NCBI RefSeq assembly: GCF_988243305.1 | Contig: NZ_OZ547136.1 | Direction: 5' to 3' (one strand) | Length of the DNA: 64,000 nt | Shown: one piece after another, positions 34,301 to 35,093 of the stretch | How positions within the stretch are numbered: position 1 is the first letter of the stretch | Layout: the number at the start of each line of letters is the position of its first letter | Position numbers: made by a program

Positions 34301-35093
34301 GGAAGCCGTGCAGGATCAGCACAGCTCCAGTTGAATATGATGGTCCGTCAGCACCTGCATCACGCTTACTGGCGGCGGGGCGTCGGTGTAGACGGCATCT
34401 ACCATGCTGATACTGCCCATATTGACCATCGCGTTACGGCCAAATTTCGAGTGATCGACAACCAGCATAACGTGGCGCGAGTTCTCAATAATGGCGCGTT
34501 TGGTGCGAACTTCGTGGTAATCGAACTCCAGCAGCGAGCCGTCGCTATCGATGCCACTAATCCCCAGAATGCCGAAATCAAGGCGGAACTGGGAGATAAA
34601 ATCGAGCGTCGCTTCGCCTATGATCCCACCATCGCGGCTACGTAATTCGCCACCGGCGAGAATAATGCGAAAATCTTCTTTTACCATCAACGTGTTAGCG
34701 ACGTTGAGATTGTTGGTGACAATGCGCAAATTGCTGTGATTAAGCAGCGCGTGCGCCACCGCTTCCGGGGTGGTGCCGATATCGATAAACAGCGTCGAGC
34801 CGTTGGGGATTTGCTCCGCCACTTTGCGGGCGATGCGCTCTTTTTCTTCGGTCTGGGTGGCCTTGCGATCGTGCCACGGGGTGTTAACCGAACTGGAAGG
34901 CAGCGCCGCGCCGCCATGATGCCGCAGGATCAGGTTTTGCTCTGCCAGCTCATTGAGGTCACGACGAATAGTCTGCGGGCTGACGGAGAAGTGCTCCACC
35001 AGTTCCTCGGTACTGACATAACCTTGCTGTTTAACCAGTTCGATAATACCGTTGTGACGTTGTGTTTGTTTCATTTATAAATCCCTGGAATTA

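What the first reader, a model, noticed from the sequence alone, without database searches (positions are those of the whole stretch)
34316..34334. Convergent 3'-end overlap of rtcR and glpR (19 bp)
The rtcR stop (34334) lies inside the last codons of glpR (which ends at 34316 on the opposite strand). Convergent coding overlap leaves no room for independent terminators and implies antisense transcription across each gene's 3' end.
Basis: seen in the sequence. Interest (0 to 1): 0.2.

Follow-up and report, generated by a model that had tools for sequence, protein, structure and literature searches.

The report
Known rtcR–glpR tail-to-tail gene overlap
Two E. coli regulator genes on opposite strands really do share their last 19 bases, but this is an ordinary, already annotated overlap that arises because the unimportant tail of one protein (RtcR) is read off the back of the conserved last codons of the other (GlpR).

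Summary
rtcR (32736-34334, +) and glpR (34316-35074, -) share 19 bp. The same overlap is annotated in RefSeq for E. coli 042, K-12 MG1655 (b3422/b3423) and divergent alleles, and a 61-bp query spanning the junction matches 5423 of 5426 complete E. coli genomes.

It is an ordinary convergent overlap. GlpR's C-terminus (QLELC) is conserved in all 80 species loci fetched, with or without rtcR. The conserved RtcR core ends at W522, and the residues after it vary in length and sequence. The tail QHSSS is simply the antisense of the GlpR codons, with third codon positions facing each other.

Relatives show three junction states: 4 bp (shared-stop tetramer TTAA/CTAA), 19 bp, and 35-38 bp in another frame. 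A stop-codon base change or a 7-nt indel would convert one into another. No locus has a spacer.

There is no intrinsic terminator at the junction. Published MG1655 data (Adams 2021) place a Rho-dependent termination region on the glpR strand inside rtcR, about 330 nt past the glpR stop, so glpEGR transcripts do run antisense into rtcR. Read-through of rtcR into glpR is undocumented. Low interest; already known.

The parts
32736..34334 (+). rtcR coding sequence (532 aa; sigma-54-dependent activator of rtcBA); stop TGA at 34332-34334
   Evidence: ORF; Pfam RtcR, Sigma54_activat and AAA_lid_14; RefSeq annotation
34316..35074 (-). glpR coding sequence (252 aa; DeoR-family repressor, last gene of glpEGR); stop TGA read as tca at 34316-34318
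   Evidence: ORF; Pfam HTH_DeoR and DeoRC; RefSeq annotation
34316..34334 (.). 19-bp convergent overlap. It encodes RtcR (D)QHSSS* on the + strand and GlpR (I)QLELC* on the - strand. The third codon positions of the two frames coincide (phase 123:213).
   Evidence: Read directly from the sequence; junction comparison; phase nomenclature from PMC2174442
34302..34331 (+). Codons for the non-conserved RtcR tail (E523-S532), downstream of the last conserved family residue W522 (34299-34301)
   Evidence: C-termini of about 90 full-length RtcR homologues: the core ends at ...NDADRLRKYLARFGLxW, followed by a stretch of variable length and sequence
34302..34328 (-). Imperfect inverted repeat (arms 34302-34311 and 34319-34328). 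In the glpR mRNA it folds into a 10-bp hairpin with the glpR stop codon in the loop. No U tract follows, so it is not an intrinsic terminator.
   Evidence: 146-nt glpR-sense RNA, z = -3.8, 0 of 200 shuffles fold as well; the hairpin is kept only within Escherichia; not flagged by the terminator scan
33982..34315 (-). Stretch of rtcR transcribed antisense by glpEGR read-through, up to the reported centre of the Rho-dependent termination region (MG1655 3559514, which maps to window 33982). The published position has a resolution of hundreds of nt.
   Evidence: Adams et al. 2021, eLife, PMC7815308, Supplementary file 2; coordinate mapping

Best explanation
This is a passive, near-neutral tail-to-tail overlap. 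The rtcBA-rtcR cassette sits between malT and glpR and lies flush against glpR with no spacer. RtcR's functional core ends at W522, and what follows is an unconstrained tail whose length depends only on where the next in-frame stop falls in the antisense of glpR. In Escherichia the glpR stop is TGA. On the rtcR strand this reads ..GA|TCA|G.., so rtcR reads CAG (Gln) where relatives with a glpR TAA or TAG stop read TAA (stop). RtcR therefore runs on for five codons (QHSSS) to a TGA formed by the GlpR codons (A/C)TT-CAR. In this phase the wobble positions of the two frames face each other, so the overlap adds almost no constraint on GlpR, whose QLELC end is the conserved partner.

Transcription: there is no terminator at the junction. 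glpEGR transcripts continue antisense into rtcR and are stopped by Rho a few hundred nt downstream.

Shown: the anatomy, the conservation, the three junction states, and Rho dependence in MG1655. Inferred: neutrality, the direction of change between states, and any effect on rtcR expression.
For: - GlpR ends in ..QLELC at the same position in all 80 species loci fetched, with or without rtcR downstream. The exceptions are two loci with a 2-residue extension beyond QLELC and one E. coli allele with QQELC.
- The RtcR family core ends at ...RKYLARFGLxW. The residues after it differ in length (about 3-20) and sequence. QHSSS appears only in enterobacterial RtcRs.
- The junction states are: 19 bp in Escherichia spp., K. 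oxytoca and K. spallanzanii; 4 bp with tetramer TTAA or CTAA in a Ro60-linked Salmonella-like locus (L088) and in Superficieibacter (L037), in the same phase; and 35-38 bp in another frame, with 7 rather than 14 nt between the W codon and the glpR stop, in Intestinirhabdus (L031) and Salmonella (L086).
- A substitution seen at a shared third position (AGT/AGC against CAA/CAG) is synonymous in both frames.
- Lillo & Krakauer 2007 describe exactly these 4-nt tetramers, and stop-codon mutation as the main origin of convergent overlaps; they count 58 such overlaps in E. coli.
- No terminator or promoter consensus lies at the junction, and there is no Rfam match.
- Rho termination region at 3559514(-): reads upstream/downstream are 154/29 without BCM and 153/256 with BCM, p = 2.7e-27.
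- ST131 and strain S4 have lost most of rtc, yet they keep the rtcR 3' remnant, the overlap and an intact glpR.
Against: - Neutrality is inferred from comparative patterns and has not been measured.
- QHSSS is invariant wherever the 19-bp state occurs. That is expected from GlpR constraint, but it cannot formally exclude a role for the tail.
- The glpR-sense RNA around the junction folds better than shuffled sequence (z = -3.8), which might hint at a selected RNA structure. However, it is not kept outside Escherichia.
- The Rho data come from MG1655, where glpR is a frameshift pseudogene. Its untranslated 3' part could favour Rho loading, and the reported position is the best point within +/-800-nt windows, so it is not a mapped 3' end.
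- No clear C-rich, G-poor tract lies downstream of the glpR stop.
Confidence: 0.85

Rival explanations
1. The overlap is a regulatory device. Convergent transcription from the glpEGR promoters into rtcR (and the reverse) causes transcriptional interference, RNA polymerase collision or RNase III cleavage of the sense-antisense duplex. This would couple expression of the RNA-repair activator to the glycerol-3-phosphate regulon, in the manner of an excludon.
For: glpEGR transcripts do extend antisense into rtcR, and much further when Rho is inhibited. All eleven rtcR-bearing junctions examined lack a spacer. Regulatory 3' overlap of convergent E. coli genes has precedents, for example arfA-mscL (PMC10070815) and RNAP collisions at convergent genes (bioRxiv 10.1101/2022.10.23.513370), both listed.
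Against: There are no data on reciprocal expression. Most Enterobacteriaceae examined have glpR without rtcR. The overlap length and frame differ between lineages (4, 19 and 35-38 bp), and some lineages delete rtc while glpR stays intact. None of this suggests a conserved coupled circuit. Antisense read-through of a few hundred nt ended by Rho is generic for E. coli 3' ends.
Confidence: 0.07
2. The inverted repeat centred on the glpR stop codon (34302-34328) is a functional RNA element. It could be a compact bidirectional terminator or a 3'-end stabilising hairpin, embedded in coding sequence because there is no spacer.
For: There is a 10-bp hairpin with the stop codon in its loop. The 146-nt glpR-sense RNA has z = -3.8 against shuffles. 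A hairpin at this place is predicted in all Escherichia alleles examined.
Against: There is no U tract on either strand, and the terminator scan does not report it. On the rtcR-sense strand its G-U pairs become mismatches, and the overlapping rtcR-sense stretch 34300-34430 folds no better than shuffled sequence (z = -0.56). The hairpin is weakened in E. coli NCTC11151 and E. whittamii, and is replaced by unrelated folds in Klebsiella, Salmonella, Intestinirhabdus and Superficieibacter. No Term-seq 3' end is listed at the junction. Rho-dependent read-through passes it.
Confidence: 0.05
3. The overlap is an annotation or sequencing artefact, with one protein actually ending earlier.
For: None found.
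Against: Stop codons are read directly from the sequence. The junction sequence is present in 5423 complete genomes. The annotation is the same in the K-12 reference. Protein clusters with thousands of members end in QHSSS, and GlpR ends in QLELC in all 80 species loci fetched.
Confidence: 0.01

Closest known systems
Convergent (tail-to-tail) overlapping prokaryotic genes produced by stop-codon mutation and run-on (Lillo & Krakauer 2007, PMC2174442; 58 such pairs counted in E. coli)
   Same: Two real genes on opposite strands share their 3' ends. Relatives carry the canonical 4-nt shared-stop tetramers TTAA/CTAA. The 19-bp form differs at the stop base and runs on to the next in-frame stop. 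It uses phase 123:213, with wobble facing wobble.
   Different: Nothing essential. At 19 bp it is longer than the modal 4 bp. Three interconvertible states of a single junction can be seen across Enterobacteriaceae, which makes a tidy worked example.
Rho-dependent termination of 3' read-through and antisense transcription in E. coli (Adams et al. 2021, PMC7815308; earlier BCM studies cited there)
   Same: There is a BCM-sensitive drop in minus-strand coverage downstream of glpR, inside and antisense to rtcR, and no intrinsic terminator motif.
   Different: The Rho-terminated 3' untranslated stretch lies entirely within the coding sequence of the convergent partner. The data come from a strain in which glpR is a pseudogene.
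Bidirectional intrinsic terminators and RNAP head-on collision at convergent genes (SEnd-seq work; bioRxiv 10.1101/2022.10.23.513370)
   Same: The gene pair is convergent, both transcripts must end in the same short region, and a palindrome sits at the junction.
   Different: There is no A-tract / hairpin / U-tract architecture, and no mapped overlapping 3' ends. The defining motif was tested and not met.
Excludon-type or 3'-UTR cis-antisense regulation (e.g. arfA-mscL in E. coli, PMC10070815)
   Same: The geometry would allow sense-antisense pairing of the two mRNAs' 3' ends.
   Different: No evidence of reciprocal regulation exists, and the partnership is not conserved, since most glpR genes have no rtcR neighbour.

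Membership tests
Convergent overlapping gene pair (stop-codon run-on type) | Two homology-supported protein-coding genes on opposite strands whose stop codons lie inside each other's last codons | tested here: met
   plus RefSeq annotation
Convergent overlapping gene pair (stop-codon run-on type) | The extended partner's overlapping tail is non-conserved in its family, while the other partner's codons are conserved | tested here: met
   RtcR residues after W522 vary across about 90 homologues. GlpR ends in QLELC in all 80 species loci fetched.
Convergent overlapping gene pair (stop-codon run-on type) | Related junctions exist that differ by the stop-codon base or a small indel, such as the 4-nt shared-stop tetramer | tested here: met
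   TTAA (L088) and CTAA (L037) states with a 4-bp overlap, against TCAG with 19 bp; a 7-nt spacing difference gives 35-38 bp. The direction of change was not resolved.
Bidirectional intrinsic terminator | G+C-rich hairpin flanked by an A tract upstream and a U tract downstream, so that it terminates on both strands | tested here: not met
   A hairpin is present at 34302-34328, but there is no U tract on either strand and the scan does not report it.
Rho-dependent terminator | Read-through increases when Rho is inhibited (bicyclomycin) | tested here: met
   Looked up in published data, not measured here. MG1655 3559514(-): 154/29 reads without BCM against 153/256 with BCM, Rho score 8.89, p = 2.7e-27. 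Caveats: glpR is a pseudogene in MG1655, and the positional resolution is low.
Rho-dependent terminator | C-rich, G-poor, unstructured rut region on the nascent RNA | tested here: inconclusive
   The C/G ratio is only 1.3-1.5 in the first ~60 nt after the glpR stop and about 1 beyond that. That segment is also predicted to be structured.
Excludon / cis-antisense regulatory overlap | Expression of one partner changes reciprocally with transcription of the other | not testable with these tools
   This needs strand-specific expression data in promoter or terminator mutants.

The most novel reading that the evidence does not exclude
Because there is no spacer and glpEGR read-through is limited only by Rho, the level of antisense transcription across the rtcR 3' end could set RtcR abundance. 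That level would vary with Rho activity, with translation of glpR, or with glpEGR promoter strength. Stresses that impair Rho or translation would then feed into the RNA-repair operon through this junction.
Probability: 0.05. Interest if true: 0.35.

Novelty: already known. Interest (0 to 1): 0.08.

Why it matters
It matters little. The overlap is in the reference annotation and fits the textbook picture of convergent overlaps created by stop-codon position. Its practical value is for genome engineering. Deleting or tagging the 3' end of rtcR or glpR in E. coli alters the other gene, and any rtcR deletion design should spare 34316-34334. Conversely, natural rtc deletions (ST131) keep this end. 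It is also a clean teaching example of how one neutral stop-codon choice (glpR TAA/TAG against TGA) changes the length of the neighbouring protein.

Tried and rejected
- Terminator and promoter consensus scan of 33800-34900: no promoter-like sites, and 3 weak terminator-like sites away from the junction, which is not above the shuffle expectation.
- Rfam at a permissive E-value over 32400-35400: no matches.
- Folding: the rtcR-sense RNA downstream of the rtcR stop is unremarkable (z = -0.56). The glpR-sense RNA has z = -3.8, but the structure is not conserved outside Escherichia, so I did not build a covariance model.
- C/G composition as a rut signature: not informative.
- Literature searches for rtcR+glpR, glpEGR, and rtcR+antisense+Rho found no paper that discusses this junction.
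- Term-seq tables from Adams 2021: no curated 3' end within about +/-600 nt of the junction and no plus-strand event.
- PDB search: no solved structure covers either C-terminal tail.
- I first assumed the window was strain 042. It is identical over 33800-34900, but elsewhere only 98-99% identical and with indels.
- My first automated overlap estimate for L037 (139 bp) was an artefact of extending a tblastn frame. Direct translation gives 4 bp.

Full report
**1. The observation**

The window sequence around 34316-34334 and the mechanical ORF list show two ORFs.
- One is a 532-aa ORF at 32736..34334 on the + strand, with stop TGA at 34332-34334.
- The other is a 252-aa ORF at 34316..35074 on the - strand, with stop TGA read as 'tca' at 34316-34318.

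Pfam identifies the first as RtcR (RtcR N-terminal domain, sigma-54 interaction domain, AAA lid). It identifies the second as a DeoR-family repressor with HTH_DeoR and DeoRC domains.

On the + strand it reads GAT CAG CAC AGC TCC AGT TGA (D Q H S S S stop). On the - strand it reads ATT CAA CTG GAG CTG TGC TGA (I Q L E L C stop). The third codon positions of the two frames coincide. This is phase 123:213 in the nomenclature of Lillo & Krakauer 2007.

**2. Is it in reference genomes?**

The 1.1 kb around the junction is 100% identical to E. coli 042 and is present in 5425 of 5426 complete E. coli genomes. RefSeq annotates the same 19-bp overlap in:
- strain 042 (rtcR ..3906186, glpR 3906168..);
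- K-12 MG1655 (rtcR b3422 ..3559866; glpR b3423 3559848.., a pseudogene in MG1655);
- the divergent NCTC11151 allele;
- ATCC 25922.

A 61-bp query centred on the overlap matches 5423 of 5426 genomes over at least 80% of its length. The overlap is real and already on record.

In strain 042's annotation of the syntenic 64 kb there are nine convergent gene pairs. The other eight have gaps of 42-219 bp. The window itself is a different strain from 042 (98-99% identity elsewhere).

**3. Which partner is constrained?**

I fetched glpR loci from 80 species of Enterobacteriaceae.
- GlpR is 252 aa and ends in ..QLELC at the same position in every one. Two loci carry a 2-residue extension beyond QLELC.
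- Only a minority have rtcR downstream: three Escherichia species, K. oxytoca, K. spallanzanii, Intestinirhabdus and Superficieibacter.
- In most of the others, the glpR stop is followed by a short hairpin or REP-like spacer and then the convergent 3' end of malT.

The rtc cassette therefore occupies the malT-glpR intergenic position in only some lineages.

RtcR shows the opposite pattern. Among about 90 full-length homologues from gamma- and beta-proteobacteria, the conserved core ends at ...NDADRLRKYLARFGLxW (W522 in E. coli). What follows is 3-20 residues of unrelated sequence. The tail QHSSS occurs only in enterobacterial proteins, and it is the antisense reading of the GlpR codons. GlpR is the constrained partner and the RtcR tail is a passenger.

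**4. Three states of one junction**

Translating each junction directly, and using gene calls on contigs that carry two RtcR variants, gives three states.
- **State A, 19 bp, tail ..QHSSS:** E. coli, E. albertii, E. whittamii, Escherichia sp., K. oxytoca and K. spallanzanii.
- **State B, 4 bp:** the two stops share the tetramer TTAA (locus L088) or CTAA (Superficieibacter, L037), in the same phase as A. L088 encodes a 527-aa RtcR next to a Ro60/TROVE gene. Its glpR-glpD flank is 96.9% identical to Salmonella loci.
- **State C, 35 or 38 bp in a different frame:** tails ISTAPAEYGDR (Intestinirhabdus) and ISTIPAVYGGRR (Salmonella enterica P0030, L086). Only 7 nt, instead of 14, separate the W codon from the glpR stop.

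A and B differ at the base that makes the glpR stop TGA rather than TAA or TAG. On the rtcR strand that base turns a stop (TAA) into Gln (CAG), and RtcR runs on to the next in-frame TGA. This is the 'stop codon mutation' route that Lillo & Krakauer propose as the main source of convergent overlaps. They list CTAA, TTAA, CTAG and TTAG as the modal 4-nt forms and count 58 convergent overlaps in E. coli. The direction of change (B to A or A to B) is not resolved here.

No rtcR-bearing locus has a spacer.

One substitution seen between state-A loci (AGT/AGC, which is CAA/CAG on the other strand) is synonymous in both frames. One E. coli allele (NCTC11151) has an A-to-T change that alters both proteins, giving GlpR L249Q and RtcR S532C.

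**5. Natural deletions**

- ST131 and strain S4 carry a deletion that fuses a remnant of rtcA to the last 399 bp of rtcR. The 19-bp overlap and an intact glpR are retained.
- K. michiganensis, K. grimontii and a MAG (UBA5654) retain 30 to more than 100 nt of the rtcR 3' end next to glpR, although the rest of rtcR is gone.
- One strain (NCTC11023) has a larger deletion that truncates glpR itself.

This fits repeated loss of rtc, with the glpR end usually spared.

**6. Transcription**

- The consensus scan finds no sigma-70-like promoter in 33800-34900. It finds three weak terminator-like sites, none at the junction (167 nt or more away), against 1.5 +/- 1.1 expected from shuffles.
- Rfam gives nothing.
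- The glpR-sense RNA from 34335 down to 34190 folds better than shuffles (z = -3.8). It includes a 10-bp hairpin (arms 34302-34311 and 34319-34328) with the glpR stop codon in its loop. No U tract follows.
- The overlapping rtcR-sense stretch 34300-34430 folds no better than shuffled sequence (z = -0.56).
- The fold is kept only within Escherichia.

Adams et al. 2021 (eLife, PMC7815308, Supplementary file 2) list a Rho termination region on the minus strand at MG1655 3559514, classed 'antisense, rtcR'. In 800-nt windows upstream/downstream, the read counts are 154/29 without bicyclomycin and 153/256 with it. The Rho score is 8.89 and the significance is 2.7e-27. That position is 334 nt beyond the glpR stop and maps to window 33982.

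So glpEGR transcripts do run antisense into rtcR and are stopped by Rho. There are three caveats:
- MG1655 glpR is a frameshift pseudogene.
- The position is the best point within broad windows, not a mapped end.
- I see no clear C-rich, G-poor tract.

No curated Term-seq end and no plus-strand Rho region are listed within about 600 nt of the junction. Read-through of rtcR into glpR remains undocumented.

**7. Interpretation**

The best-supported reading is a passive overlap. A dispensable RtcR tail is read from the antisense of conserved GlpR codons, in the phase that costs least, and termination is delegated to Rho inside the partner gene.

A regulatory reading (transcriptional interference or antisense pairing between glpEGR and rtcR) is geometrically possible and has precedents in E. 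coli (papers found). Nothing here supports it, however. The partnership is absent from most relatives, and overlap length and frame vary.

A bidirectional intrinsic terminator is excluded by its defining motif. An artefact is excluded by the sequence and by thousands of genomes.

**8. Verdict**

The feature is already annotated and belongs to a well-described class. Interest is low. The only modest addition is the three-state comparison of the junction across Enterobacteriaceae.

Noticed in passing
window 30301-34334 (rtcA-rtcB-rtcR) and loci L002, L004, L086, L088, L089: The rtc cassette between malT and glpR is unusually polymorphic. Compared with K-12, rtcR is 95.1% and rtcB 96.9% identical in nucleotides, and half of all complete E. 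coli genomes are only 90-95% identical over 33800-34900. ST131 and strain S4 carry an rtcA'-'rtcR deletion scar. Two Salmonella rtcR alleles are only 82% identical, although their glpR-glpD flanks are 96.9% identical, which suggests cassette replacement by recombination.
   Followed up: partly
window 34190-34335, minus strand: The glpR-sense RNA folds much better than shuffled sequence (z = -3.8). It has a hairpin with the glpR stop codon in its loop, plus a 9-bp perfect inverted repeat, CGCGCCAGG (34228-34236) / CCTGGCGCG (34278-34286), inside the most conserved part of the RtcR C-terminal region. It is conserved only within Escherichia, and its function, if any, is unknown.
   Followed up: partly
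L003 (E. coli NCTC11151), junction equivalent to window 34329: A single A-to-T substitution inside the overlap changes both proteins at once: GlpR L249Q, in the otherwise invariant QLELC, and RtcR S532C.
   Followed up: no
L086/L087 (Salmonella enterica) 573-576: At the other edge of the rtc cassette, malT and rtcA also overlap tail-to-tail by 4 bp in this Salmonella allele. In E. coli they are separated by 42 bp.
   Followed up: no
L005 (E. coli NCTC11023): A deletion joins a truncated glpR (missing its C-terminus) to a remnant of malP, removing rtcR, rtcBA and malT. This strain should be constitutive for the glp regulon and maltose-negative.
   Followed up: no
window ~43330-45970: The window is not strain 042 itself. 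It is 98-99% identical over most of its length and carries about 2.6 kb that is absent from 042 at this position, next to the strain-variable fimbrial cluster between glpD and glgP.
   Followed up: no
protein list (P0011-P0025, P0036-P0057): Many E. coli, Shigella and Salmonella RtcR entries are shortened (411-507 aa) relative to the 532-aa form. This suggests frequent frameshift or truncation alleles of rtcR in natural isolates.
   Followed up: no
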